A stretch of 64,000 bases of DNA from Dehalococcoidia bacterium (GTDB taxonomy: Bacteria; Chloroflexota; Dehalococcoidia; Lucifugimonadales; UBA3495): contig CBDBCU010000003.1 of NCBI GenBank assembly GCA_965203435.1, forward strand, positions 74,918 to 138,917. The letters run 5' to 3'. The notes beneath the pieces are model-generated. The model was given only the letters and a program-made list of their open reading frames with translations. It was not told the DNA's origin and made no database searches. Positions 32,765 to 49,538 of the stretch are shown piece by piece (position 1 is the stretch's first letter; the number at the start of each line of letters is the position of its first letter). A program made the translations under genes and the position numbers.

Positions 32765-34510
32765 TTACCGCCGCCCGAACTCCCGCTCCATGTGGTAGGA
32801 GCTGAAGTGCAGCAGGGTCGGCCGCCCGTGGGGGCAGGTATGGGGGCTGTCGGTAACTTCCAACTGCTCCAGCAAGGCCCGCATTTCCGCATCGGTAAGG
32901 GATTGGCCGGCCCGGATGGCGCTGTGACAGGCTACGGAGGCCGCTAGAATATCCTCCCGTTCCCGCAGCAGGCCGTCAAAGGCCGCCAGATCCAGCACAT
33001 CGCGCAGGGATTGGGCCGGATCCTGGCTGGTCAGGATGGCCGGCATAGTCCGCAGCAGGTAGCTGTTGCGGTCGCCAAAGGGTTCCAGCCCAAAGCCATA
33101 GGCTTGCAGAAACTCCTGATGGGATTCCAGGGTTTCCGCCTGGGCCGGCGTCAATTCCACCGCCGCCGGCGTCAGCAGGGGTTGAGAGGGGACTTCCCGC
33201 TGGGCGGCTTGGCGGACGATGCGGTCAAACAAGACCCGCTCGTGGGCCGCGTGCTGATCCACCAGATACATTCCGTCCGGGCTTTCGGCCACGATGTAGG
33301 TCAATCGCACCTGGCCCACCACGCGCAGGGTCGGCAGGGCTTGCTGCGGCGTCATCGCCGCCGCCGGCGGGCCATTGCCGTCGACCGGGCGATTGGCGGT
33401 GCTGACGGCGGCCTGGCCCGGGGCGCGGGAATCCAGGGGACTGCGGAAAAAGCCGGGGGTAGCGGTGGCATCGGCCGCGGCCGGCGCCCGGCGGGGCCCG
33501 CTAAATTCCCGCACCGGCGCGGCGGCGACCAGGGCCGCCCGCACCGCCCGCTGCAAGACCGCATAGACCTTGCCCTCCTGATGAAAGCGCACTTCCCGCT
33601 TGGCCGGATGGGAGTTCACATCCACCGCGCTATAGGGCAGGATCAGGTTCAGGGCGGCCAGGGGATAGCGTTTTTCCGGCAGCAAGCCATGATAGGCTTC
33701 CTCCAGGGCAAAGGACAGCAGGCGGCTCTGAATCCAGCGGCGGTTGACGAAAAAGGTCATATAGGTGCGGTTGGCCCGGTGCAGGTTGGGCGCGCCGGCA
33801 AAACCGGCCAAGCTATAGCCGGTTTCCGGGTCTTGCCCGGCCACTTCCAGCATCGCCGCCGCCGCTTCCGCGCCATACACCGCCAAAAGCGCATCGGCGG
33901 CCCGGCCGTTGCCCGGGGTAGCCAGGGCTTGCCGGTCGCCGATAGTCAAGCGGAAAGCGATTTCCGGGTAGGCCAGGGCGTAGCGGGAAACCAGGTCGTG
34001 GCAACGGCCGCCCTCAGCCTGGGCCGATTTGAGGAACTTGCGGCGGGCCGGCAGATTGCCGAACAGGTCGGCAATCGTTACCGTCGTTCCCGGCGGGCCG
34101 CCCTGCGCCCCTTCCTTGAGCAGCTGCCCCCAAGCGTATTCAATGGAATAGCCGGAATCAGCGGCCGGAGGCCGGGTGGTCAAGGTCATTCGGGAAACGG
34201 CGGCGATGCTGGGCAGGGCCTCGCCGCGAAAGCCCAAAGTGCCGATAGCGTCCAACTGTTCCCGGCCGCTGATCTTGCTGGTGGCGTGATGCTGAAAAGC
34301 CAGGGCCACTTCGGCGGCCGGGATACCCTCTCCGTCGTCCACCACCCGGATGCGCTCGATGCCGCCGCCCTGGATGGCAATGGATATGCGGGCGGCCCCG
34401 GCGTCCAGGGCGTTTTCCAGCAGTTCCTTGACTACCGAGGCCGGCCGTTCCACCACTTCGCCGGCGGCAATTTGCGCCGCCAGTTCCGGGGAGAGCAGTT
34501 TAATGGGCAT
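32765..34510 (-). CDS. mutL: DNA mismatch repair protein MutL
   Basis: LSPELAAQIAAGEVVERPASVVKELLENALDAG (GHKL ATPase) and the C-terminal dimerisation/endonuclease-type region. The ATG at 34510 gives the canonical N-terminus MPIKLL. Confidence 0.92.
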   Translation of the reverse strand: MPIKLLSPELAAQIAAGEVVERPASVVKELLENALDAGAARISIAIQGGGIERIRVVDDGEGIPAAEVALAFQHHATSKISGREQLDAIGTLGFRGEALPSIAAVSRMTLTTRPPAADSGYSIEYAWGQLLKEGAQGGPPGTTVTIADLFGNLPARRKFLKSAQAEGGRCHDLVSRYALAYPEIAFRLTIGDRQALATPGNGRAADALLAVYGAEAAAAMLEVAGQDPETGYSLAGFAGAPNLHRANRTYMTFFVNRRWIQSRLLSFALEEAYHGLLPEKRYPLAALNLILPYSAVDVNSHPAKREVRFHQEGKVYAVLQRAVRAALVAAAPVREFSGPRRAPAAADATATPGFFRSPLDSRAPGQAAVSTANRPVDGNGPPAAAMTPQQALPTLRVVGQVRLTYIVAESPDGMYLVDQHAAHERVLFDRIVRQAAQREVPSQPLLTPAAVELTPAQAETLESHQEFLQAYGFGLEPFGDRNSYLLRTMPAILTSQDPAQSLRDVLDLAAFDGLLREREDILAASVACHSAIRAGQSLTDAEMRALLEQLEVTDSPHTCPHGRPTLLHFSSYHMEREFGRR

Positions 34511-34546
34511 AAGGGCACCTGACCGCCGCCGGCCCAAGCCGCCGGC

Positions 34547-34984
34547 CTACCAGAGCGGCAGGACGGTGCCTTTGGCGCGATACTGCTTGTCCTCGGAACT
34601 GCCGACCCGGTGGAAGTCGCAGACGATTTGATAGACCCGGGCCATCTGCTGATCCACATTGCGGGCAAAGAAGTAGGGCGGCACCCAGGCCCCGCCAAAG
34701 GCGGCCACCACTTCCGGGTAGTCGTCGATGACGAACTCCGGCTCGAAGGGGATTTTCAGCTCCTCCAGCCGTTCCTGAAAATGGTGGGTGGGTTTTTCGT
34801 ACACCCCGCTGATGTAGGGGTTCAGCTGGTGCTTTTCCACCACTTCCCACCGCTCGCCCATGCCGGACCAGATGTAGATTTCGTGGTGGTCGTCCAGGAG
34901 TTTCTGAAAGGTCTCCTTGGTGCCGGGGCGCAGGGTATCATCCAGCCCCAGGATGGTGTAGTCCACGTCAAAAAAGATTTTCAT
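34547..34984 (-). CDS. Small HAD-superfamily phosphatase-like protein
   Basis: Motif I is FFDVDYTIL (DxDxT), with a downstream IWSG and a VIDDYPE acidic motif. Length is 145 aa. Confidence 0.6.
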   Translation of the reverse strand: MKIFFDVDYTILGLDDTLRPGTKETFQKLLDDHHEIYIWSGMGERWEVVEKHQLNPYISGVYEKPTHHFQERLEELKIPFEPEFVIDDYPEVVAAFGGAWVPPYFFARNVDQQMARVYQIVCDFHRVGSSEDKQYRAKGTVLPLW

Positions 34985-35148
34985 CGCGCGACGCTAGTCC
35001 CCCGACGGCAAAAATAGGCTAAAAGGATAGCATAACCGGCAATAGGTCAACAATAGAATTATTGCCAGTTTTGGCGATTTTCCCGAAATATCGTCAAAAC
35101 TTGCCGGCTACCCTTTCCGGGCAGGGGGCAACGGCTTGGGCCGGCGGC

Positions 35149-35514
35149 TTAACCGTCCCCGGCCAGGGCCGCCGCCAGCAGTTTCAGGTTAGCCCCGATG
35201 ACCAGCCGGTCGCCCAGGCGGGTTATCGGGCGGCGCAGCAGGCGCGGCTCCTCCAGGATCAGCCGCCGCAGCTCGGCGGCCGGCAATTCCTGGCCGGCCA
35301 AGCCCAACTTTTTCAGGCTGGGACTGCGCCAGGCAAAGAGTTCCGGCAACGGGGCCAAGGCCGCCAGTTCGTCAAGTTCCTCAGGGCGCAACGGCTCCTG
35401 GAAAAAGTCCCGTGCGGTCACCGTCAGGCCCTGCTGCAAGAGCAACTCTCTCGCTTTGCGGCAGGAACTTCAACGCGGCCACCAGTAGAAAGTAACCGAT
35501 TCGCTTTCGCTCAA
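35149..35514 (-). CDS. ArsC/Spx-family (YffB-like) thiol oxidoreductase with in-frame TGA at the redox Cys: candidate selenoprotein (U-x-x-C)
   Basis: TTG start at 35514, with GGGAGG 6 nt upstream. Translation is MSESESVTFYWWPR-[TGA 35470-35472]-SSCRKARELLLQQGLTVTARDFF..., continuing in frame into the ORF-track ORF 35149-35445. The TGA aligns with the first Cys of the family motif Y.x.x.C-x-T-C-(R/K)-K-A. Total length is 121 codons, normal for the family. Confidence 0.7.
35430..35465 (-). promoter_or_regulatory. Candidate bacterial SECIS hairpin downstream of the TGA at 35470-35472
   Basis: The RNA is CCUGC-C-GCAA-AGC-GAG-[AGAGUUG]-CUC-UUGC-A-GCAGG, about 12 bp. The stem starts 5 nt after the UGA and the apical loop lies about +21 to +27. 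Confidence 0.5.
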
Positions 35515-35660
35515 AACGCGCCTCCCGGCGGCTTGGTCAAATGCCGGGCAATGCCCGCGCCGCCGCCAATGTTAGGCTATTCTAACCCGGATTGGGGAGA
35601 AAGTTAAAGGCATTAGCCGGGCGGTTTGTGGGGGAATTGTTGCAACGACCGGCCTTGCGC

Positions 35661-36278
35661 TTACTCAGCCGGAAACCATTCCCTGAGTATTGAACGCAGT
35701 TCCAGAAATGCCGCATCCTGGCAACGGCGCAGGGATACCTTTTCCGCCAACTGCCGGTACAGAGATGCGCTCCGCGGAGTTTGCGCCGCGTGCAAAACCT
35801 CGAGAAATGCCTTTTTAGGGCTTTCCGGTTTGACGGCGCCCGGTTGCAACAAATTTTGCTCCCTCAGCCAATCGTTGATGGACAAGGGCCGGCCGCGCCA
35901 GCCAACTACTTCGGCAATATGCGGCGACCCGCTCCAAACCCACGCCTCCAGTTCCGGCGCCAATACAATCGCCCGGGCCCGGTCATCCCACGCTGCGGCT
36001 AGTTCCCGGTTAAGTTGATTTTGCAACTCTTGCGGGGTATAGCCCTCGCGCCCACTGCCCTGGTGGTCGAAGATCAGCAGGCCGTGACGATACTGCCGGG
36101 CGAAAATGGACAGGAAAGGGACGCCGCGTTGGGCGCAGCCCGGATCGTGTTCCTGATGGACCTGAATGTCCGCATTAACTTCCCGAAGGCCCAGGGATTG
36201 CCGGCGGGTCAACAACCCGGCCAGGGCATTTTCCATATCCTTGTCCGCGGCCAGGATAATCAAGTCTTTCGCGCTCAC
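35661..36278 (-). CDS. Toprim-like (DUF4276/RloB-type) small protein, partner of the upstream ATPase
   Basis: The pattern LIILAADKDMENALAGLLTR ... GLLIFDHQGSG ... AIVLAPELEAWVW mirrors the strand-acidic, D-x-D-like and pElEaW arrangement of DUF4276/RloB-type Toprim proteins. The start overlaps the ATPase stop by 4 nt. Confidence 0.45.
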   Translation of the reverse strand: MSAKDLIILAADKDMENALAGLLTRRQSLGLREVNADIQVHQEHDPGCAQRGVPFLSIFARQYRHGLLIFDHQGSGREGYTPQELQNQLNRELAAAWDDRARAIVLAPELEAWVWSGSPHIAEVVGWRGRPLSINDWLREQNLLQPGAVKPESPKKAFLEVLHAAQTPRSASLYRQLAEKVSLRRCQDAAFLELRSILREWFPAE

Positions 36279-37534
36279 CCCAAAACTCCCGCGGCAAACA
36301 GCGTACCCAAGTCAACTTGCCCTTGCCAGTCCCGGAGCATCGGATGCTCCGAGCCCAGGACAATGTCGGTCGCGCCGTCGGCGCTCTTGGCAAAGCACAG
36401 CACATCATCCGCATGGGCATTGTTTAACACCACCGGGGAATGGGTCGCCAGCAGCACTTGGGAATGGTACATTGCGGAAAGGGAAGCGTATGCGGTAGCT
36501 ACCGCCGACGGATGTATCCCATTCTCCGGCTCCTCAATCAGGTAGATGCCTTGATGACCGGTTAGGTAGGCCGGCAGGGTAAGGCCGGTAAGCCGGAGGG
36601 TGCCGTCGGAAACCAACCAGGAAGGCACCGTCATTCCGCCGGCATACTGGTACAGCATATAGCAGTGCCGATCCTCCGGGCGCTCAAAGGTAACAATATC
36701 CTCCAAGTCGGGCAGAGCCGTCCGCAGATGGGCGACCCAATTCCGGTGTCGTTCCGGGGATTCTTTCCGGAGACGGTCGACCACCCAGGGCAGATTAGAG
36801 CCGTCGGGCAAGAATCCTGAAATTCTGGTAGGCGGGCTCGGACGGCGGAGCTCACGGCTGTTGAGAAAAAACTGCTGCACCCCGTCCGTCAGGTATTCCC
36901 GGAACCAGGTAGCCACCGGAAAGTTGGTTTCATCCTCCGGCAAGTTGCCCAAGGCCGACCGGCGCGGCCCCAAGCGGATAGCCGGTACCCACCCGCCGGC
37001 AGAGCGCTTGTAGGTTTCGCTGTAGAAATTGTCGTTGCCGCCGGGCAGTTTGTTCAGTACGACCTTGTTTTTAGGCCCGTGAATGCCGGCCTGCAAGGTG
37101 GTCGGGGCTGGGGGCGGCATGGGGAAAATAGCGCGCTGCTGCGGTTTCAACGCCGTCGCCTTATGCAACAGAAGCGTTTCCGCCTTGAACTCAAAAGCTC
37201 CCTGCGCCGCGTCGGGGCCGATAGCTACCTGGTATCGGATGAGGTCCAAGTCCGGCCGAAAGGTGCGCTCGCGCAACTCCTCCGGGATCTGCGCCTCTAC
37301 CGACAGCTCAAAACTCTTGCCCCGGCCCTGAAAGAGCAGTTGCTGCGGGTCGGGGGTACGGGATTCCATGGCTGAGTCCAAGCCCCCGGACACCAGGTCG
37401 CGCAGAAACCCGATAACATCCAGAAAGGTGGTTTTGCCCGAGGCGTTAGGCCCGACCAGGATATGAAAGGGCTTCAGCGGCCGATGCATATACCGCAAGC
37501 AACGATAGTTCAGGGCTTCGACCAAGGTAATCAT
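36275..37534 (-). CDS. ABC/SMC-like AAA ATPase (AAA_21-type)
   Basis: Walker A GPNASGKTT, signature-like SDGTLRL, Walker B/D-loop IYLIEEPENGIHP and H-loop LATHSP, with a long insertion between Walker A and the signature motif. Confidence 0.75.
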   Translation of the reverse strand: MITLVEALNYRCLRYMHRPLKPFHILVGPNASGKTTFLDVIGFLRDLVSGGLDSAMESRTPDPQQLLFQGRGKSFELSVEAQIPEELRERTFRPDLDLIRYQVAIGPDAAQGAFEFKAETLLLHKATALKPQQRAIFPMPPPAPTTLQAGIHGPKNKVVLNKLPGGNDNFYSETYKRSAGGWVPAIRLGPRRSALGNLPEDETNFPVATWFREYLTDGVQQFFLNSRELRRPSPPTRISGFLPDGSNLPWVVDRLRKESPERHRNWVAHLRTALPDLEDIVTFERPEDRHCYMLYQYAGGMTVPSWLVSDGTLRLTGLTLPAYLTGHQGIYLIEEPENGIHPSAVATAYASLSAMYHSQVLLATHSPVVLNNAHADDVLCFAKSADGATDIVLGSEHPMLRDWQGQVDLGTLFAAGVLG

Positions 37535-37575
37535 CCGACTGCTCCGGCGCGCAAGGCGGCGCTGATTTAGCCTGC

Positions 37576-38616
37576 CTACCCCACCAATCCCCGCGCCGTT
37601 TTTACTACCCGCGCCGCGTTGGGCAGGTAGGTGTCCTCCAGGGGGCGGCTGTAGGGAACTGGCGTGTGGGGAGCCGTTACCCGGGATGGGGGGGCGTCCA
37701 GGTAGTCAAAGGCTTCCTCGGCCACCCGGGCGCAGATGTCCGCGGCCAGGCTGCATACCGGCGTATCCTCGTCCACCACTACCAAGCGGTGGGTGCGCCG
37801 CACCGAGTCGATAATCAGGTCGTAGTCAATGGGGGAAACGCTGAGCAAATCCACTACTTCGGCATTCACTCCCGTCTTAGCCAATTCCTCGGCCGCTTCG
37901 GTGCAAACCCAGGTCATCTTGGAAATGCCCACCAGGGTCAGGTCGGAGCCGGGGCGGACGGTGCGGGCCTTGCCCAAGGGCAGGGCGTAGGGTTCCTCCG
38001 GCACCGGGCCGGTGTTGCCGTACAGCCCCTTATGCTCAAAATAGACCACCGGGTCATCGTCCCGAATGGCGGCGGTCAGCAGTCCTTTGGCGGTGTAGGG
38101 ATCCGAGGGAACCACCCCTTTCAGGCCGGGAATGTGGCTGAAAATGGAATAGAAGGATTCCGAGTGCTGGGCGGCGCTGCCAAAGCCGGCCCCGATGCGG
38201 GTCAGCAGGGTAAAAGGCACTTTTACCTGGCCGCCGAACATATAGCGCATCTTGGCGGCGTTGTTCAGCAGCTGATCCATACAGACGCCGACGAAATCCA
38301 CGAACATCAGCTCGGCTACGGCCCGCATCCCGGTGGAGGCGGCGCCAATGGCCGTGCCGACAAAGGCGGCCTCGGACAGCGGCGTATCCAAGACCCGCTG
38401 ATTGCCGAACTGCTGAATCAAGCCCACGGTGGTGCGGAAGGGACCGCCCCAGGCGTCGACGATGCCCAGGTGTTCCCGGCCGGCGCCGCCGGCGATTTCC
38501 TCGCCCATAATGATGACGGTTTCATCCCGCTCCATTTCCTGGCGCAGGGCTTCGTTGATGGCTTCCCGATACCGCAGTTCCCGGTCGGTAGCCGGCAGCA
38601 TTGCCGTGGTGGTCAT
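37576..38616 (-). CDS. 2-oxoacid (pyruvate/acetoin) dehydrogenase E1 component beta subunit
   Basis: 346 aa with EAINEALRQEMERDETVIIMGEEI and the FRTTVGL..FG..RVLDTPLSE transketolase-like pyrimidine-binding domain. Confidence 0.88.
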   Translation of the reverse strand: MTTTAMLPATDRELRYREAINEALRQEMERDETVIIMGEEIAGGAGREHLGIVDAWGGPFRTTVGLIQQFGNQRVLDTPLSEAAFVGTAIGAASTGMRAVAELMFVDFVGVCMDQLLNNAAKMRYMFGGQVKVPFTLLTRIGAGFGSAAQHSESFYSIFSHIPGLKGVVPSDPYTAKGLLTAAIRDDDPVVYFEHKGLYGNTGPVPEEPYALPLGKARTVRPGSDLTLVGISKMTWVCTEAAEELAKTGVNAEVVDLLSVSPIDYDLIIDSVRRTHRLVVVDEDTPVCSLAADICARVAEEAFDYLDAPPSRVTAPHTPVPYSRPLEDTYLPNAARVVKTARGLVG

Positions 38617-38690
38617 ACTTCGTTCCTCGCGTTAAAGGATGCCGGTTATTTCCGGGCAAGGGTTAGCCCGGAAAGTCCCGTTGGCAACCC

Positions 38691-38718
38691 GGGATTCCCG
38701 CTTTCGCGGGAAGGACGG
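38691..38718. repeat. Family B hairpin unit, solo degenerate copy
   Basis: gggattcccgctttcgcgggaaggacgg differs from the 25504 unit at 2 positions. It lies between the E1 alpha and beta genes. Confidence 0.7.
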
Positions 38719-38764
38719 TTAAAGGCCGGGCCGGATTTCCACATTAAAGGCCGGGCGGAGCGGG

Positions 38765-39772
38765 CTAAATTTCCAGGTTGACGCCCCGGGCCATCATGGC
38801 CACCGGGTAATCCACATAAACATCATCGTAGAGTTCCGCCGGCTGGGGCAGGGGGCTTTCGTCGGCGAACTGGATGGCCTGTTCCATCAGTTCCTGGGCT
38901 TCCAGGTCCATAAAGTCCAGTTCATCGGCGGCGATCAGGCCGCCGGGCAAGACCTTTTCCCGGAACACCTTGAGGGGATCGCGGCCGCGCCAGTAATCCT
39001 GCTCCTCCTGAGTGCGATAGCTCAGCGGATTGTCAAAGACGGTGTGGCCGTAGTAGCGGTAGGTGCGACATTCCAGCAGGGAAGGCCCCAAGCCGGCCCG
39101 GGCCCGCTGCACCGCCTGGCCGGCGGCCTCGAAAACATCGAAAACATCCATCCCGTCCACGTGGACGCCGGGCATATCGTAGCCGGCGGCCCGGTCAGCC
39201 ACCCGAGCCGTGGACAAGGCGTATTCCACCGGAGTGGATTCGGCATAGCCGTTGTTTTCGCAGCAGAAAATCACCGGCAGTTTCCAGACGGAAGCCAGGT
39301 TCATACATTCGTGCAGGACGCCCTGATTGGCCCCGCCGTCGCCAAAGAAAGCTACGGCGACCCGCCCCAAGCCGCGCAGCTTGGAAGTGAGAGCCGCCCC
39401 CACGGCCAAAGGCACGCTGGCGGCCACTACGCCGTTCGTGCCCAGCATCCCCTTGCTCATATCGGCGATGTGCATGGAACCGCCCTTGCCCTTGTTGGGG
39501 CCGGTGGCCCGGCCGAAAAGCTCGGCCATCATCAGCTTGGGGTCGACGCCCTTGGCGATGCAATGGCCGTGGCCGCGGTGGGTGCTGCCGATGTAGTCGG
39601 CCTCGGTCAAGTGGGCGCAAACGCCGGTCGGCACGGCTTCCTGGCCGGCCGAGGAATGGACGGAGCCGGACATCCCCCGCTGGCCGGTTTCCGGGATGCC
39701 CCGTTCCTCAAAATGGCGAATGGTGGTCATGGTGCGGTACAGGCTCAGCAGCGTATCCCGGTTCAGTTCCAT
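38765..39772 (-). CDS. 2-oxoacid (pyruvate/acetoin) dehydrogenase E1 component alpha subunit
   Basis: ThDP motif GDGGANQGVLHECMNLASVWKLPVIFCCENN. The start is taken at MELNRDTLLSLYRTM (ATG 39772, GGGGGA upstream). The ORF-track start at 40132 would overlap mutS. Confidence 0.85.
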   Translation of the reverse strand: MELNRDTLLSLYRTMTTIRHFEERGIPETGQRGMSGSVHSSAGQEAVPTGVCAHLTEADYIGSTHRGHGHCIAKGVDPKLMMAELFGRATGPNKGKGGSMHIADMSKGMLGTNGVVAASVPLAVGAALTSKLRGLGRVAVAFFGDGGANQGVLHECMNLASVWKLPVIFCCENNGYAESTPVEYALSTARVADRAAGYDMPGVHVDGMDVFDVFEAAGQAVQRARAGLGPSLLECRTYRYYGHTVFDNPLSYRTQEEQDYWRGRDPLKVFREKVLPGGLIAADELDFMDLEAQELMEQAIQFADESPLPQPAELYDDVYVDYPVAMMARGVNLEI

Positions 39773-39900
39773 AGTCGTCCCCCGGCCGGCGGCGGCCGGC
39801 ATATTGTCCGCCGCGGGCAAAGCAGTTTCCCCCATAGTAGCACGGCGGCAAGATATGTCAATAGCGGCGGCGCGGCCGACAAGGACACGGGTAAAAAGCC

Positions 39901-42564
39901 TTATCCGCCGCCCTGCCGCGCCTTTTCCTGCAATTCGTACAATTTGTTGATGGCTTCCAAGGGCGTCAGGTTGGGGATGTCCAGGGACAGCACCGCATCG
40001 GTCAAGGGTTGGGCCGGCGGCAAGAGGGCGATTTGCAAGGCGGCGGCGGCCGGGGCGGATCGGCCGCCTTTGCCTTTGCCGGCGGCCCGGCCGGGCAAGG
40101 CGCCCTTTTCCAGTTCGGCCAGCACTTCCCAAGCCCGGCTGACTACCGCCCGGGGCAGGCCGGCCAATTGCGCCACATGGACGCCGTAGCTGCGGTCAGC
40201 CCCGCCGGGGACAATGCGATGCAGAAAAACCACCCGGACCTCCTCCTCCGTTACCGCCACGCTGAAATTGCGGACGCCGGGCAAAGTCTGGGCCAATTCG
40301 GTAAGTTCATGGTAGTGGGTGGCAAAAAGGGATTTGCAGCCCAGGCGCGGGTCATTGTGCAGGTGTTCGATCACCGACCGGGCAATGGAAAGGCCATCAT
40401 AGGTGCTGGTGCCGCGGCCGATTTCGTCCAGAACGACTAGGGAGCGCGGCGTGGCCTGGTTCAGGATGGCCGCCGTTTCCTCCATTTCCACCATAAAAGT
40501 GGACTGGCCGGTGGTTAAATCGTCCTGCAAACCCACCCGGGTGAAAATCCGATCCACTAACCCGATTTCCGCCGCCGCCGCCGGCACAAAGCTGCCCGTT
40601 TGCGCCATTAGCACAATAATGGCGGCCTGGCGGATGTAGGTGGACTTGCCGGCCATATTGGGGCCGGTGAGCAGGATGATCCGGGCGTCATTTTTATCCA
40701 GCTGCAAGTCGTTGGGAACATACGACCCGGGACCCAAAGTGCGCTCGACGACCGGATGGCGGCCGTCCCGGATGCTGATCGCCGGGCCGTCGTTCAACCG
40801 GGGCCGCACATAATCATAGCGGACGGCAACCTCGGCCAGGGCGGCAAAGACATCCAGGGCGGCTATGCCGGCGGCCAGCCGTCCGATGGGTTCGGCATAG
40901 CCGCCCAACTGACTGCACACCTGGCGGAATAGGGAGCGTTCCAATTCCTGAATCCGCTCCCGGGAGTTCAGCACCAGGGATTCGTACTCTTTCAGTTCGG
41001 GAACGATATAACGCTCGCCGTTGGTCAAGGTCTGGCGGCGGATGTAGTCGTCCGGCACTTGGCGCAGGTTGGTTTTGCTGACTTCGATATAGTAGCCGAA
41101 AACCTGATTGTAGCCGACGCGCAGATTGCGGATGCCGGTGCGCGCCCGTTCCCGGGTTTCCAGGCCGGCGATAAAGCCCCGAGCATCTCTAGCGGCGGTC
41201 TTGAGTTCATCCAGTTCCGGGGAAAAGCCTTCGCGGATGATGTTGCCCTCGCCAACGCTGCCGGCCGGCTCCGGGGCGATGGCATCGGCAATCAACGCCG
41301 CCGGTTCCGGCGTCGGGGCCAGTTGGCGGGAAAGCCAGGCAACCGGTTCCGCCGCCGCCGCATCATCCTCCGCCGCCAGAGTCGCCGCCAGGGGTTCGGC
41401 GGCTTCGAGGCCGGCTTTCAAGGCGGTCAAATCCCGGGGGATGGCGGTGCCGGCCTGCACCCGGCCCAAGATGCGCTCCAAGTCGGCAATGTTGCTCAAA
41501 AGGGCGCGGGCCGCGCTGCGGCGAAAGGCATCGGCAAAGAAATGCTCGACAGCATCCAACCGCCGCTCCAGTTCTGCCCGTTCCAGCAATGGCTGCCCCA
41601 GCCAGCGGCGCAGAAGGCGGCCGCCCATAGCGGTGCGGGTGTCATCCAAGGCGGTCAATAGGGAAAACTGGCGGCTTTCCCAGCGGCCGGCGGTGAACAG
41701 TTCCAAGTTGCGGCGGGTTTGAGCGTCCAGGGTCATATAGCCGGCGGTGGAATAGACGCTCAGCGGGGCCAGCCGGGGTTTGATGGCTTTGTAGGTCTGA
41801 CCCAGGTAGTCCACAATAGCCCCGGCGGCCCGGGTAGCCAGCGGCCGGTCGACGCAGCCAAAGGATTCCAGGGAGCGGATGGCGTAGTGGGTCAGCAGGG
41901 CGTCCCGGGCCAAATCCAGGTCAAAGGTAGCCGGATTCAGCCGGGTCAAAGGATAGCCGGAGGGATCCGCGGTTTCCGGGGATTCCGGCACGGACGGGTA
42001 GCCGCTGCCGCCGTTGCCGCCGGCCCAGGAGGGCGGAGTATCGGTGGCTGGAATCAGGATTTCCGCGGGGGCAATGCGTTCCAGTTCCGGAAGCAGCTTT
42101 TCCGGAGGCAGTTCCGTGGCGGAGAATTCTCCGGTGGTTATGTCCACATAGGCAAAGCCGATAGCGGCATCAGACTCGACCACGGCCGCCAGATAGTTGT
42201 TGGCTTTCTGTTCCAGGAGGGCGGTTTCCAGGACGGTGCCGGGCGTAACCACCCGCACCACATCCCGCTCCACCAAGCCTTTAGACAAGGCCGGATCGGT
42301 AAGCTGTTCGCAGATGGCTACCTTGTGGCCCTTTTTAATCAGGCGGGCCAGGTAGGATTCCAGGGCGTGGGCCGGGACGCCGGCCATCGGGACTTTCAGA
42401 CCCTTGCCCAAGGTGCGGGAAGTAAGGGTAATTTCCAGTTCCCGAGCCGCCAAGTGGGCGTCATCGTCGAAAGTTTCGTAAAAGTCGCCCAGCCGGAACA
42501 GCACCAAAGCGTCCGGATAGGAATGTTTGATTTTCAGGTACTGGCGGCGTACCGGCGTTACCAT
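39901..42564 (-). CDS. mutS: DNA mismatch repair protein MutS
   Basis: TPVRRQYLKIKHSYPDALVLFRLGDFYETF, Walker A GPNMAGKST, STFMVEMEE and DEIGRGTSTYDG. Confidence 0.95.
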   Translation of the reverse strand: MVTPVRRQYLKIKHSYPDALVLFRLGDFYETFDDDAHLAARELEITLTSRTLGKGLKVPMAGVPAHALESYLARLIKKGHKVAICEQLTDPALSKGLVERDVVRVVTPGTVLETALLEQKANNYLAAVVESDAAIGFAYVDITTGEFSATELPPEKLLPELERIAPAEILIPATDTPPSWAGGNGGSGYPSVPESPETADPSGYPLTRLNPATFDLDLARDALLTHYAIRSLESFGCVDRPLATRAAGAIVDYLGQTYKAIKPRLAPLSVYSTAGYMTLDAQTRRNLELFTAGRWESRQFSLLTALDDTRTAMGGRLLRRWLGQPLLERAELERRLDAVEHFFADAFRRSAARALLSNIADLERILGRVQAGTAIPRDLTALKAGLEAAEPLAATLAAEDDAAAAEPVAWLSRQLAPTPEPAALIADAIAPEPAGSVGEGNIIREGFSPELDELKTAARDARGFIAGLETRERARTGIRNLRVGYNQVFGYYIEVSKTNLRQVPDDYIRRQTLTNGERYIVPELKEYESLVLNSRERIQELERSLFRQVCSQLGGYAEPIGRLAAGIAALDVFAALAEVAVRYDYVRPRLNDGPAISIRDGRHPVVERTLGPGSYVPNDLQLDKNDARIILLTGPNMAGKSTYIRQAAIIVLMAQTGSFVPAAAAEIGLVDRIFTRVGLQDDLTTGQSTFMVEMEETAAILNQATPRSLVVLDEIGRGTSTYDGLSIARSVIEHLHNDPRLGCKSLFATHYHELTELAQTLPGVRNFSVAVTEEEVRVVFLHRIVPGGADRSYGVHVAQLAGLPRAVVSRAWEVLAELEKGALPGRAAGKGKGGRSAPAAAALQIALLPPAQPLTDAVLSLDIPNLTPLEAINKLYELQEKARQGGG

Positions 42565-48899: not shown

Positions 48900-49538
48900 C
48901 TACTCCCCTTTCAGGTACTGGTTTATTGCCGACTGGAAAATGGGGTAGGGGTGGGCGCCGGTGAACAGCAGATTGCCCACGACAAAGGTGGGAATGCCCC
49001 GGATGCCGTACTGCAAGGCTTCCTGATACTGCTGCATCACCGCGGCCGAATAGGTATGATTTTCCAGGTGTTCCAGCATTTCGGCGGCGTTCAGGGATAC
49101 CGAGCGGGCTACTTCGGCCAGCACCGCCAGCTGCCCCAAGTCCTGCCCGTCCTGCCAATAGGCTTTATAGGCGGCGTGGTGAAACTCCATAAACTTGCCC
49201 TGCCGCTGGGCGTACTCGGTGGCTTCCAGGGCGTAGCGGGTGTTGGGGGTAACGGAGGGCGGCCGCATAATCAAGTTGGCTTCCCGCACGTGAGAGCGGA
49301 TAGGTTCGCTCAGCTCGTCGGCGGTTTCTCCGGCCCGGGGCTGGCGCTGCAAACCCTCCGGGGGCGCATCCGGCCGCAGCAGATAGGCCCGGCCCTCGAC
49401 GGCAATGTTATAGTTCTGACCCAGCTGGTCGACCCGCTCCAGGCCGACATAGCACCAGGGTCAAATGTAATCGTACCAGACGATAACCCGCACCGGGTCA
49501 ACGCCGTTGGCCGCCGAATGCTGCGCCGCTTGGGTCAT
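48900..49538 (-). CDS. DsbA/FrnE-family thiol oxidoreductase with in-frame TGA at the first redox Cys: candidate selenoprotein (U-P-W-C)
   Basis: ATG at 49538, with GGAGGG 8 nt upstream. Translation is MTQAAQHSAANGVDPVRVIVWYDYI-[TGA 49461-49463]-PWCYVGLERVDQLG..., continuing in frame into the ORF-track ORF 48900-49352. That ORF contains the cis-Pro region GIRGIPTFVV. Family consensus at this site is SD..CPWCY.G. Total length is 212 codons. Confidence 0.72.
49425..49458 (-). promoter_or_regulatory. Candidate bacterial SECIS hairpin downstream of the TGA at 49461-49463
   Basis: In the RNA, GUCGGCC-[UGGAGCG]-GGUCGAC forms a 7-bp upper stem (one G-U pair), with a lower CUG/CAG stem. The apical loop lies about +20 to +26 after the UGA. 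Confidence 0.5.

What the first reader, a model, noticed from the sequence alone, without database searches (positions are those of the whole stretch)
35149..35514. ArsC/Spx-family gene with TGA exactly at the redox cysteine: candidate selenoprotein missed by ORF calling
- The ORF track shows only a 98-aa fragment (35149-35445) that lacks the family's N-terminal redox motif.
- Reading upstream in the same frame gives TTG(35514)-SESESVTFYWWPR-TGA-SSCRKARELLLQQGL... This is the canonical ArsC/Spx/YffB N-terminus (Y-x-x-x-x-C-x-T-C-[KR]-K-A) with the TGA at 35470-35472 in place of the first Cys.
- A strong GGGAGG lies 6 nt upstream of the TTG, and the restored length of 121 codons is normal for the family.
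- A hairpin of about 12 bp starts 5 nt after the TGA. Its apical loop lies about +21 to +27, the geometry known for the E. coli fdhF SECIS element.
- TGA is used as an ordinary stop elsewhere in the window (for example ruvX), so a reassigned genetic code is not the explanation.
- UxxC forms of thioredoxin-fold oxidoreductases are an established selenoprotein class.
- A second gene in this window shows the same arrangement, which argues against a random pseudogene.
Basis: partly seen in the sequence, partly recalled or inferred. Interest (0 to 1): 0.8.

Follow-up and report, generated by a model that had tools for sequence, protein, structure and literature searches.

The report
Missed selenoprotein gene, ArsC/Spx family
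This is a real but mis-annotated gene for a small redox protein that uses selenocysteine (encoded by an in-frame TGA) in place of its active-site cysteine; the same arrangement is kept in at least 80 related Dehalococcoidia genomes, and this kind of selenoprotein has been catalogued since 2005-2008.

Summary

- **The gene.** On the minus strand, TTG (35514) to TAA (35149) encodes a 121-codon ArsC/Spx-fold protein. An in-frame TGA (35472-35470) gives the motif F-Y-W-W-P-R-U-S-S-C-R-K.
- **Conservation.** In 80 other genomes (mostly Dehalococcoidia/SAR202 MAGs) the same codon is TGA in 80/80. It is never another stop codon and never a Cys codon. The 12 codons upstream show synonymous variation under amino-acid conservation.
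- **SECIS.** A 7-bp helix with a near-invariant AGUUG loop lies 16-34 nt after the TGA. It is paired in 99.8% of cells and has three compensatory pairs.
- **Active site.** The U aligns with Cys10 of the B. subtilis Spx C10xxC13 switch and with the first Cys of CxxC homologs.
- **Second gene.** A DsbA-like gene in the window (TGA 49461-49463) behaves the same way in 44/44 genomes.
- **Sec trait.** Two homolog-bearing genomes are in BSepDB's top ten selenoprotein-rich bacteria.
- **Annotation.** All 62 protein clusters for this clade in the public protein collection searched are N-terminally truncated.
- **Novelty.** Sec-containing ArsC-family proteins are already catalogued as UxxS and UxxC forms. 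This is a new member or sub-clade of a known kind.
- **Gaps.** Sec machinery in this genome could not be checked, and the biochemical role is unknown.

The parts
35149..35514 (-). Complete selenoprotein gene: 121 aa of ArsC/Spx fold with a U15-S-S-C18 motif.
   Evidence: Searches give the reading frame. One search gives PF03960 at E=5.5e-15. Searches show the same architecture in 80 other genomes.
35521..35526 (-). Shine-Dalgarno-like GGGAGG, 6 nt before the TTG start.
   Evidence: read directly from the sequence.
35512..35514 (-). TTG start codon. It is the only start codon in the open stretch upstream of the TGA.
   Evidence: WIN row. Homologs start 12 codons before the TGA, with ATG in 70 and TTG in 8.
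35470..35472 (-). In-frame TGA, the selenocysteine codon (U15).
   Evidence: TGA in 81/81 sequences. It aligns with Spx Cys10 and with the first Cys of CxxC homologs.
35461..35463 (-). TGC codon for Cys18, the resolving Cys of the UxxC motif.
   Evidence: C18 is an invariant column in alignment A3.
35448..35454 (-). SECIS upper helix, 5' arm (GCGAGAG), +16 to +22 after the UGA.
   Evidence: The 7-bp helix is paired in 99.8% of cells and 3 pairs show compensatory changes.
35443..35447 (-). SECIS apical loop AGUUG.
   Evidence: A, G and U are invariant and the following U and G are conserved in at least 90% of 81 sequences, including third codon positions.
35436..35442 (-). SECIS upper helix, 3' arm (CUCUUGC), +28 to +34.
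35429..35466 (-). Outer span of the lower stem (arms 35466-35461 and 35434-35429). It extends the hairpin in this window only.
   Evidence: One search gives -15.8 kcal/mol with both helices. One search shows only 56.6% of cells paired across homologs, so this stem is not a conserved part.
35149..35151 (-). TAA, the true stop codon.
35579..35607 (-). Weak sigma-70-like promoter match (TTAACT-17-TAGAAT) upstream of the gene.
   Evidence: This is a consensus match only (9/12).
34547..34984 (-). Conserved downstream partner: a 145-aa protein with a DxDxT motif and only a faint HAD-like match.
   Evidence: Present directly downstream in 79/81 loci. Pfam Hydrolase_3 E=0.029, below threshold.
32765..34537 (-). 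mutL, the conserved downstream neighbour on the same strand.
   Evidence: MutL domains. Present in 80/81 loci.

Best explanation
The locus is one intact gene for a 121-residue thioredoxin-fold protein of the ArsC/Spx superfamily, and its first active-site cysteine is replaced by selenocysteine.

**How it is made**
- Translation starts at TTG 35514.
- At UGA 35472-35470 the ribosome does not terminate. A SECIS hairpin inside the coding sequence recruits SelB carrying GTP and Sec-tRNA(Sec), which inserts Sec. The hairpin is a 7-bp helix with an AGUUG loop, 16-34 nt downstream of the UGA.
- Translation then continues to TAA 35149.

**What the product probably does**
- It carries a U15-x-x-C18 centre at the position of the Spx/ArsC redox cysteines.
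- It most likely cycles between a selenolate/thiol state and a selenenylsulfide state. It would act as a small cytoplasmic selenol-thiol oxidoreductase or redox sensor.
- It sits in a conserved mutS / this gene / 145-aa gene / mutL cluster.

**Status of each step**
- Shown here: conservation of the UGA, coding constraint on both sides of it, RNA covariation, alignment of U with the redox Cys, and synteny.
- Inferred: SelB dependence, actual Se incorporation, and the redox chemistry and physiological role.
For: 1. **Conserved TGA.** TGA is at the homologous codon in 81/81 sequences from distinct species-level genomes. It is never TAA/TAG and never TGY.
2. **Translated upstream region.** Upstream codons are conserved as amino acids with free synonymous variation: Tyr TAC 42/TAT 37, Pro CCC 40/CCA 11/CCG 9/CCT 9, Phe TTT 21/TTC 20. 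A start codon sits 12 codons upstream in 79/81.
3. **SECIS helix.** RNAalifold predicts the helix on its own. Pair types are UA 37/CG 28/UG 15, AU 46/GU 27/GC 8 and AU 61/CG 20. Paired cells are 99.8%, against 33-64% when the partner is slid. 0/500 shuffles reach the observed covariation score, though that shuffle control does not preserve relatedness, so it is not a probability. Several compensations couple an amino-acid change on one arm to a synonymous codon choice on the other.
4. **Loop conservation.** The AGUUG loop is near-invariant, including Leu always TTG in a 63% GC genome.
5. **Alignment of U with Cys.** U aligns with Spx Cys10 (E=1e-14 to solved Spx structures) and with the first Cys of CxxC in full-length homologs of 35-42% identity in alignment A3. 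One of these is a TGT-encoded form in another Dehalococcoidia MAG.
6. **Truncated database entries.** All 62 close database homologs are 71-102 aa and cover only about 79% of the protein. This is what gene callers produce when they stop at a Sec-TGA.
7. **A second selenoprotein gene.** A DsbA-like gene 14 kb away shows TGA in 44/44 genomes and its own hairpin.
8. **Sec-rich relatives.** Homolog-bearing genomes UBA1141 and 10f4566d are listed with 49 and 46 selenoprotein genes (PMC13326102). Dehalogenimonas has selABCD (PMC4918011).
9. **TGA is still a stop.** TGA terminates ordinary genes in the window.
Against: - No selA, selB, selD or tRNA-Sec was found in the 64-kb window or in the fetched flanks. 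The source genome could not be retrieved.
- The single-sequence fold energy is unremarkable (z=-1.5).
- No formal bacterial SECIS model (bSECISearch) was run, and Rfam gave no hit there.
- There is no proteomic or 75Se evidence.
- The function is inferred only from homology. The protein scores below the NCBIfam cutoffs of every named subfamily.
Confidence: 0.88

Rival explanations
1. This is a pseudogene. A nonsense mutation inactivated an ArsC/Spx-family gene, and the 98-aa ORF is a remnant.
For: A single sequence with an in-frame stop and a truncated ORF call looks exactly like this.
Against: - The same TGA is present in 81/81 genomes down to about 52% protein identity.
- There are no frameshifts.
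- Purifying selection acts on both sides of the stop, and the start codon and SD are conserved.
- A decaying gene would not keep one specific stop codon together with a covarying hairpin.
Confidence: 0.01
2. These are two products rather than one. The UGA terminates a conserved 12-14-residue leader peptide (…FYWWPR, reminiscent of Trp-rich attenuator leaders). A separate ArsC-fragment protein is then initiated downstream, and the hairpin acts as a regulatory or attenuator structure.
For: - Two tandem Trp codons lie just before a stop.
- A conserved hairpin follows.
- A TTG with a 98-aa ORF lies downstream.
Against: - The 'leader' is homologous to beta-strand 1 of the fold. It is continuous with the rest of the protein in Cys-form homologs (P0195 'FLYWWKKCSSCRKVR', Spx 'VTLYTSPSCTSC').
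- The downstream in-frame start is not conserved. Truncated database calls begin at different residues.
- A product without strand 1 and without the first redox residue would lack the active site.
- The stop is always TGA and never TAA or TAG. Plain termination would not require that.
Confidence: 0.03
3. The UGA is read through without selenium. This could be a lineage-specific reassignment, or near-cognate or suppressor decoding as Trp, Gly or Cys.
For: - One database homolog (P0187) is predicted with Trp at this position, which shows that gene callers sometimes apply such a code.
- TGA is the least-used stop among long ORFs, 7/42.
Against: - Long ORFs are intact under table 11, and TGA ends bona fide genes.
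- In both genes the in-frame TGA falls exactly on the nucleophilic Cys of a CxxC motif.
- Each TGA is followed by a hairpin at SECIS distance.
- Relatives are documented Sec users (PMC13326102, PMC4918011).
- Trp or Gly at the catalytic position would destroy the redox centre.
Confidence: 0.03
4. This rival concerns function only and is compatible with the gene being a selenoprotein. The protein would be a true Spx/MgsR-type regulator that binds the RNA polymerase alpha C-terminal domain. It would switch transcription through a U15-C18 selenenylsulfide, rather than being a stand-alone reductase.
For: - The best matches are Spx structures (E about 1e-14) and NCBIfam TIGR01617 Spx/MgsR.
- One Sec member (77.7 bits) and one Cys form (75.6 bits) pass the 75.05 cutoff.
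- The UxxC motif superimposes on the Spx C10xxC13 switch.
- There is no ars operon context.
Against: - The window protein scores 52.9, below 75.05.
- The segment around Spx Gly52 falls in a 2-residue gap and is variable across the clade. From my own recall, this segment contacts the alpha-CTD.
- The protein lacks the C-terminal roughly 15-25 residues of Spx.
- To my knowledge, all characterised Spx proteins are from Bacillota.
Confidence: 0.2

Closest known systems
'Arsenate reductase 2' selenoprotein family (UxxC, CDD cd03032) from the Global Ocean Sampling selenoproteome (Zhang & Gladyshev 2008, PMC2398784)
   Same: - It belongs to the ArsC superfamily and has a UxxC motif.
- It was found in marine metagenomes, where SAR202/Dehalococcoidia live.
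- Cys homologs outnumber Sec forms (42 Sec, 238 Cys).
- My family's best NCBIfam match is the Spx/MgsR subfamily. This agrees with cd03032 being the Spx-subfamily model, which I recall from memory and did not check.
   Different: I could not run the CDD model or obtain those sequences, so identity of the two families is likely but unproven. The paper gives no taxonomic assignment, no synteny and no SECIS covariation for the family.
NCBIfam NF041106 'ArsC family (seleno)protein' / 'Arsenate reductase-like protein, UxxC' (review PMC13188914)
   Same: ArsC fold, with Sec at the first position of a UxxC motif.
   Different: The window protein scores 27.8 bits and nine other clade members score 27-37 bits, against a cutoff of 85. 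It is therefore a different subfamily.
'Arsenate reductase' selenoprotein (UxxS; COG1393/TIGR00014) of the Sargasso Sea (PMC1088965)
   Same: PF03960 family, with Sec replacing the nucleophilic Cys (Cys12 of R773 ArsC) and a SECIS directly downstream.
   Different: - The motif here is UxxC, not UxxS.
- TIGR00014 scores are 38-59 bits against a cutoff of 106.
- There are no ars genes nearby.
Bacillus subtilis Spx (PDB 1Z3E, 3GFK, 6GHB, 7F75)
   Same: - It is the closest solved structure by sequence (E about 1e-14).
- Its C10-T-S-C13 aligns with U15-S-S-C18.
- The conserved R-S and LLRRPI motifs are shared.
   Different: - Here Sec replaces Cys10.
- There is a 2-residue deletion at the Gly52 region.
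- The C-terminal tail is missing.
- The phylum and the gene context (mutS-mutL) are different.
E. coli fdhF SECIS (the paradigm bacterial Sec insertion element; established knowledge)
   Same: A hairpin in the coding sequence immediately 3' of the UGA, with G and U in a small apical loop at a fixed distance.
   Different: - Here the conserved part is a 7-bp helix with a 5-nt AGUUG loop.
- The loop G-U lie at positions 27-28 counted from the U of UGA. By my recollection they lie at about 23-24 in fdhF.
- No conserved bulged U was identified.

Membership tests
Bacterial selenoprotein gene (UGA-Sec recoding) | An in-frame UGA is conserved among orthologs, with coding conservation on both sides. 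| tested here: met
   TGA is present in 81/81 sequences. There is a synonymous-variation pattern upstream and a conserved protein downstream.
Bacterial selenoprotein gene (UGA-Sec recoding) | The UGA aligns with Cys in homologs (a Sec/Cys pair). | tested here: met
   It aligns with Spx Cys10 and with CxxC forms P0185, P0186, P0189, P0193, P0195 and others. The TGT codon in L134 was verified.
Bacterial selenoprotein gene (UGA-Sec recoding) | A SECIS hairpin lies immediately downstream of the UGA, with a small apical loop containing G. | tested here: met
   A 7-bp helix with an AGUUG loop lies at +16 to +34. It is paired in 99.8% of cells and has 3 compensatory pairs. The formal bSECISearch model was not run.
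Bacterial selenoprotein gene (UGA-Sec recoding) | selA, selB, selC and selD are present in the same genome. | not testable with these tools
   They are not in the window or the flanks, and the genome is not retrievable. An E. coli SelA seed reached only enterobacteria. The literature supports the trait in relatives (PMC13326102, PMC4918011).
Bacterial selenoprotein gene (UGA-Sec recoding) | Selenium is actually incorporated (75Se labelling or mass spectrometry). | not testable with these tools
   This is an experimental test.
ArsC/Spx superfamily (Pfam PF03960) | The score exceeds the Pfam gathering threshold across the domain. | tested here: met
   55.9 bits against a cutoff of 24, covering residues 10-110.
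NF041106 ArsC family (seleno)protein | The score reaches the NCBIfam cutoff of 85 bits. | tested here: not met
   27.8 bits for the window protein and 27-37 bits for nine clade members.
Glutaredoxin-dependent arsenate reductase ArsC (TIGR00014; Sec form is UxxS) | The score reaches 106 bits, the motif is C/UxxS, and the gene sits in an ars operon. | tested here: not met
   Scores are 38-59 bits. The motif is UxxC. The neighbours are mutS, a 145-aa gene and mutL, with no arsB, acr3 or arsR.
Spx/MgsR RNA-polymerase-binding regulators (TIGR01617) | The score reaches 75.05 bits and a CxxC switch is present at residues 10-13. | tested here: inconclusive
   The window protein scores 52.9 bits. Nine other Sec-clade members tested score 58.7-77.7 bits and one of them passes; a Cys form (P0195, 75.6) also passes. 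The UxxC motif aligns with C10xxC13.
Spx/MgsR RNA-polymerase-binding regulators (TIGR01617) | An alpha-CTD contact surface around Gly52 and a C-terminal tail are present. | tested here: not met
   Gly52 falls in a 2-residue gap and the region varies across the clade. The protein ends about 10-15 residues after the aligned core. RNAP binding itself is not testable here.
GOS 'Arsenate reductase 2' (cd03032, UxxC) | The protein matches CDD cd03032 and has a UxxC motif. | not testable with these tools
   The UxxC motif is met. The CDD model is not available here. The best match to the Spx subfamily is consistent with membership.

The most novel reading that the evidence does not exclude
The clade could be a selenocysteine-dependent Spx-type redox switch. 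In that reading it is fixed as Sec in every one of the 81 genomes examined and embedded between mutS and mutL. It would couple cellular redox state, through a U15-C18 selenenylsulfide, to transcription or to mismatch-repair expression in Dehalococcoidia/SAR202. That would make it the first selenoprotein transcription factor.
Probability: 0.1. Interest if true: 0.6.

Novelty: new member of a known kind. Interest (0 to 1): 0.3.

Why it matters
**Practical value**
- The result documents a systematic annotation error. All 62 database clusters for this clade are N-terminally truncated and lack the active site.
- It flags the source organism as a Sec user, so other in-frame TGAs in the genome should be re-examined. 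A DsbA-like gene in the same window is a second case.

**Biological value**
- The clade is unusual in that all 81 sampled genomes keep Sec and none has reverted to Cys.
- Its position between mutS and mutL is strongly conserved.
- It offers a clean natural example of a SECIS whose stem is maintained by coupled amino-acid and synonymous changes.

None of this changes the known picture of bacterial selenoproteomes. ArsC-like UxxC selenoproteins and selenoprotein-rich Dehalococcoidia are both already in the literature.

Tried and rejected
1. **Sec machinery.**
   - ARAGORN and Rfam on the window found only tRNA-Gln.
   - tblastn of E. coli SelA and SelB against the window and 80 loci found nothing.
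   - The search for homologous proteins with E. coli SelA returned only enterobacterial SelA, so it gave no Dehalococcoidia seed and the search was wasted.
   - I considered degenerate DNA patterns for tRNA-Sec or Sec-SelD in genome contigs. I rejected them as too unspecific: thousands of expected hits with no way to target the lineage.
2. **Source genome.** The exact 98-aa product is not on record, and the best genome hit is 82% identical. The genome itself could therefore not be inspected.
4. **Single-sequence folding.** It is not significant (z=-1.5) and gives a register-shifted loop (GAGAG) compared with the comparative structure. I rely on covariation instead.
It was tested and is not conserved.
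6. **Trp-leader or attenuator idea for 'YWW-stop'.** Rejected because the segment is strand 1 of the fold in Cys homologs.
7. **Arsenate-reductase function.** Judged unlikely given the UxxC motif, sub-threshold TIGR00014 scores and the absence of ars neighbours.
8. **BSepDB supplements.** They are not held, so I could not confirm that this exact family is listed there.
Full report
**1. Observation**

On the minus strand the table-11 ORF list shows only a 98-aa ORF at 35149-35445. Reading the same frame upstream gives TTG(35514)-S-E-S-E-S-V-T-F-Y-W-W-P-R-TGA(35472-35470)-S-S-C-R-K-A-R-E-L-L… and continues to TAA at 35151-35149. GGGAGG lies 6 nt before the TTG. The restored product is 121 aa.

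With Cys substituted for the TGA, the protein hits Pfam ArsC (PF03960) at 55.9 bits over residues 10-110. The 98-aa fragment matches only the C-terminal two thirds of the model.

**2. Is it more than chance?**

A search of 5.8 billion proteins returned 62 clusters with E<=1e-5. All of them are 71-102 aa and cover about 79% of the query. So every database relative is truncated at the N-terminus in the same way.

A scan of 185,579 species-representative genomes found 310 genomes encoding a relative. I fetched the 80 best with flanks. Most are titled Dehalococcoidia, SAR202 or Chloroflexota MAGs, and many are complete chromosomes. Their features are as follows.
- In all 80, plus the window, the codon at the homologous position is TGA. 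It is never TAA or TAG and never a Cys codon. It is embedded in [FLMI]-Y-W-W-P-R-U-S-[ST]-C-[RK]-K.
- A start codon lies exactly 12 codons upstream in 79 of the 81 sequences: ATG in 70, TTG in 8 and GTG in 1. The window uses TTG at -14.
- The upstream codons behave as translated sequence. Tyr is TAC 42/TAT 37, Pro is CCC 40/CCA 11/CCG 9/CCT 9, Phe is TTT 21/TTC 20, and both Trp are invariant or nearly so.

A pseudogene cannot produce this pattern.

**3. The RNA element**

I aligned 66 nt around the TGA from all 81 sequences (alignment A2, gapless). RNAalifold predicts one helix, columns 25-31 pairing with 37-43, and a 5-nt loop. Three pairs show compensatory substitutions:
- U-A 37 / C-G 28 / U-G 15
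- A-U 46 / G-U 27 / G-C 8
- A-U 61 / C-G 20

Of all cells, 99.8% are paired, against 33-64% when the 3' partner is slid by 1-3 columns. No shuffle out of 500 reaches the observed covariation score. That shuffle control does not preserve relatedness, so it is not a probability.

Several compensations couple an amino-acid change on one arm to a synonymous choice on the other. Examples are Ala/Val in RK[AV]RE with Leu TTG/TTA, and Arg AGR/CGR with Leu/Val. This is hard to explain by protein constraint alone. The loop AGUUG is invariant or nearly so, including third codon positions.

In the window the helix is 35454-35448 / 35442-35436 and the loop is 35447-35443. That is +16 to +34 after the A of UGA.

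The lower 6-bp stem makes the hairpin 'about 12 bp' in this sequence. It is paired in only 57% of cells across homologs, so it is not part of the conserved element.

The single-sequence fold is not significant by itself (z=-1.5). It also chooses a shifted register.

The geometry agrees with the published description of bacterial SECIS elements: a small apical loop containing G a short distance 3' of the UGA (PMC1088965). I did not run a formal SECIS model.

**4. Does U sit on the redox cysteine?**

The closest solved structures are B. subtilis Spx (E about 1e-14). The TGA position aligns with Cys10 of the C10-T-S-C13 switch.

An exhaustive HMMER search of 1.84 billion cluster representatives, using the post-TGA part of the protein, found two kinds of relatives:
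- truncated proteins of 90-100 aa;
- full-length proteins of 113-124 aa, at 35-42% identity, with CxxC at exactly this position. Examples are P0195 FLYWWKKCSSCRKVR, P0185, P0193, P0186 and P0189.

P0195 comes from a low-GC Dehalococcoidia MAG. There the codon is TGT and the gene context is different.

P0187 carries Trp at this position, most simply a TGA translated under the wrong genetic code.

The classical Sec/Cys homolog-pair criterion is therefore met.

**5. Is the organism a Sec user?**

The window has no tRNA-Sec, selA or selB. The source genome is not in the searchable collections. The direct test could not be done. The indirect evidence is good.
- A second gene in the window is DsbA-like (48900-49538, minus strand; PF01323 E=8e-34 when restored). 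It has TGA at 49461-49463 in WYDYI-U-PWCY. That TGA is kept in 44/44 Dehalococcoidia genomes and is followed by its own hairpin.
- In several complete chromosomes the two genes lie 11-14 kb apart, as they do in the window.
- BSepDB includes only species with the Sec pathway. It lists 'Dehalococcoidia bacterium UBA1141' (my L067) and isolate 10f4566d (my L056) among the ten most selenoprotein-rich bacteria, with 49 and 46 genes (PMC13326102).
- Dehalogenimonas alkenigignens, a cultured member of the class, has selC, selA, selB and a Sec-containing selD (PMC4918011).
- TGA still terminates ordinary genes here, for example the 419-aa AAA_21 ATPase. A global reassignment is therefore excluded.

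**6. What is the protein?**

NCBIfam places the window protein and nine diverse clade members closest to TIGR01617, the Spx/MgsR 'arsC_related' subfamily.

| NCBIfam model | Scores (bits) | Cutoff (bits) | Outcome |
|---|---|---|---|
| TIGR01617 Spx/MgsR | 53-78 | 75.05 | One Sec member and one Cys form pass |
| NF041106 ArsC family (seleno)protein | 27-37 | 85 | Not a member |
| TIGR00014 arsC | 38-59 | 106 | Not a member |

The motif is UxxC, as in Spx. It is not the UxxS of the R773-type ArsC selenoproteins.

The gene context argues against arsenate reduction. In 70-80 of 81 loci the order on one strand is mutS, this gene, a 145-aa protein with a DxDxT motif, then mutL. The window and its 95%-identical relative L082 carry an additional inserted block between mutS and this gene.

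Three features argue against a bona fide Spx regulator:
- the Spx Gly52 region falls in a 2-residue gap;
- that region is variable across the clade;
- the Spx C-terminal tail is absent.

I therefore commit to a small cytoplasmic selenol/thiol redox protein that cycles through a U15-C18 selenenylsulfide. An Spx-like sensor or regulator role is a minority possibility.

**7. Comparison with what is known**

Sec-containing ArsC-family proteins have been described repeatedly.

| Source | Entry |
|---|---|
| Sargasso Sea (PMC1088965) | 'Arsenate reductase', UxxS, 14 sequences |
| Deltaproteobacteria (PMC1794560) | 'ArsC-like' |
| GOS (PMC2398784) | 'Arsenate reductase 1', pfam03960, UxxS |
| GOS (PMC2398784) | 'Arsenate reductase 2', cd03032, UxxC, 42 Sec and 238 Cys sequences |

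The present clade fails the NF041106 and TIGR00014 membership tests. It fits the description of GOS 'Arsenate reductase 2'. As I recall, cd03032 is the Spx-subfamily model, but I could not check that here. DsbA-like UxxC selenoproteins are also long known.

The finding is a valid, well-supported selenoprotein gene that automatic ORF calling misses. The kind is known, so I rate it a new member or sub-clade of a known kind with modest interest.

**8. What remains open**

- The Sec machinery in this genome.
- Physical evidence for selenium in the protein.
- Whether BSepDB already files this clade.
- The biochemical role, and the meaning of the conserved mutS-mutL embedding.

Noticed in passing
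window 48900-49538 (-), TGA at 49461-49463: This is a second missed selenoprotein gene. It is a DsbA-like protein (PF01323 E=8e-34 when restored) reading VIVWYDYI-U-PWCYVG. TGA is kept in 44/44 Dehalococcoidia genomes. A hairpin, GUCGGCC-UGGAGCG-GGUCGAC, starts 13 nt after the UGA. In several complete chromosomes the gene lies 11-14 kb from the ArsC-like gene, as it does here.
   Followed up: partly
window 32765-42564 (-); loci L001-L080: The same-strand order mutS, Sec-ArsC/Spx-like gene, 145-aa DxDxT protein (34547-34984), mutL (32765-34537) is conserved in 70-80 of 81 genomes. A small redox selenoprotein embedded in the mismatch-repair cluster is unexplained.
   Followed up: partly
window 35661-40132 (-): In the window and in L082, a block is inserted between mutS and the ArsC-like gene relative to most relatives. 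It holds E1 dehydrogenase alpha and beta genes plus a two-gene module. That module is an AAA_21 ATPase (36275-37534), whose best PADLOC hit is HEC-01A at E=3.5e-39, and an overlapping 205-aa protein (35661-36278) with no family match. The module may be a candidate defence system.
   Followed up: partly
whole window: TGA is the least-used stop codon among long high-GC3 ORFs (7 of 42, against TAG 19 and TAA 16), even though the window is 63% G+C. The ORF set is heuristic and includes some antisense ORFs. This could reflect selection against TGA stops in a selenoprotein-rich lineage.
   Followed up: no
alignment A2 columns 4-6; window 35473-35475: The codon immediately before the Sec-TGA is CGT in 71 of 81 sequences, with CGC in only 2. 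This is a much stronger codon preference than at other positions and may be a context effect on UGA recoding.
   Followed up: no
P0187 (protein found): This database homolog is predicted with Trp at the Sec position (YFWNR-W-SSCRKAREVLLQ) and has long spurious extensions on both ends. It looks like a TGA translated under genetic code 4 or 25 by a gene caller.
   Followed up: no
L134 2501-2860 (+): This is a Cys-form homolog (TGT; YWWKK-C-SSCRKVR) in a 37% GC Dehalococcoidia MAG. It lies next to rpsF-ssb-rpsR-like genes rather than mutS/mutL, and a run of masked N lies directly upstream. It shows that Sec and Cys forms coexist within the class.
   Followed up: partly
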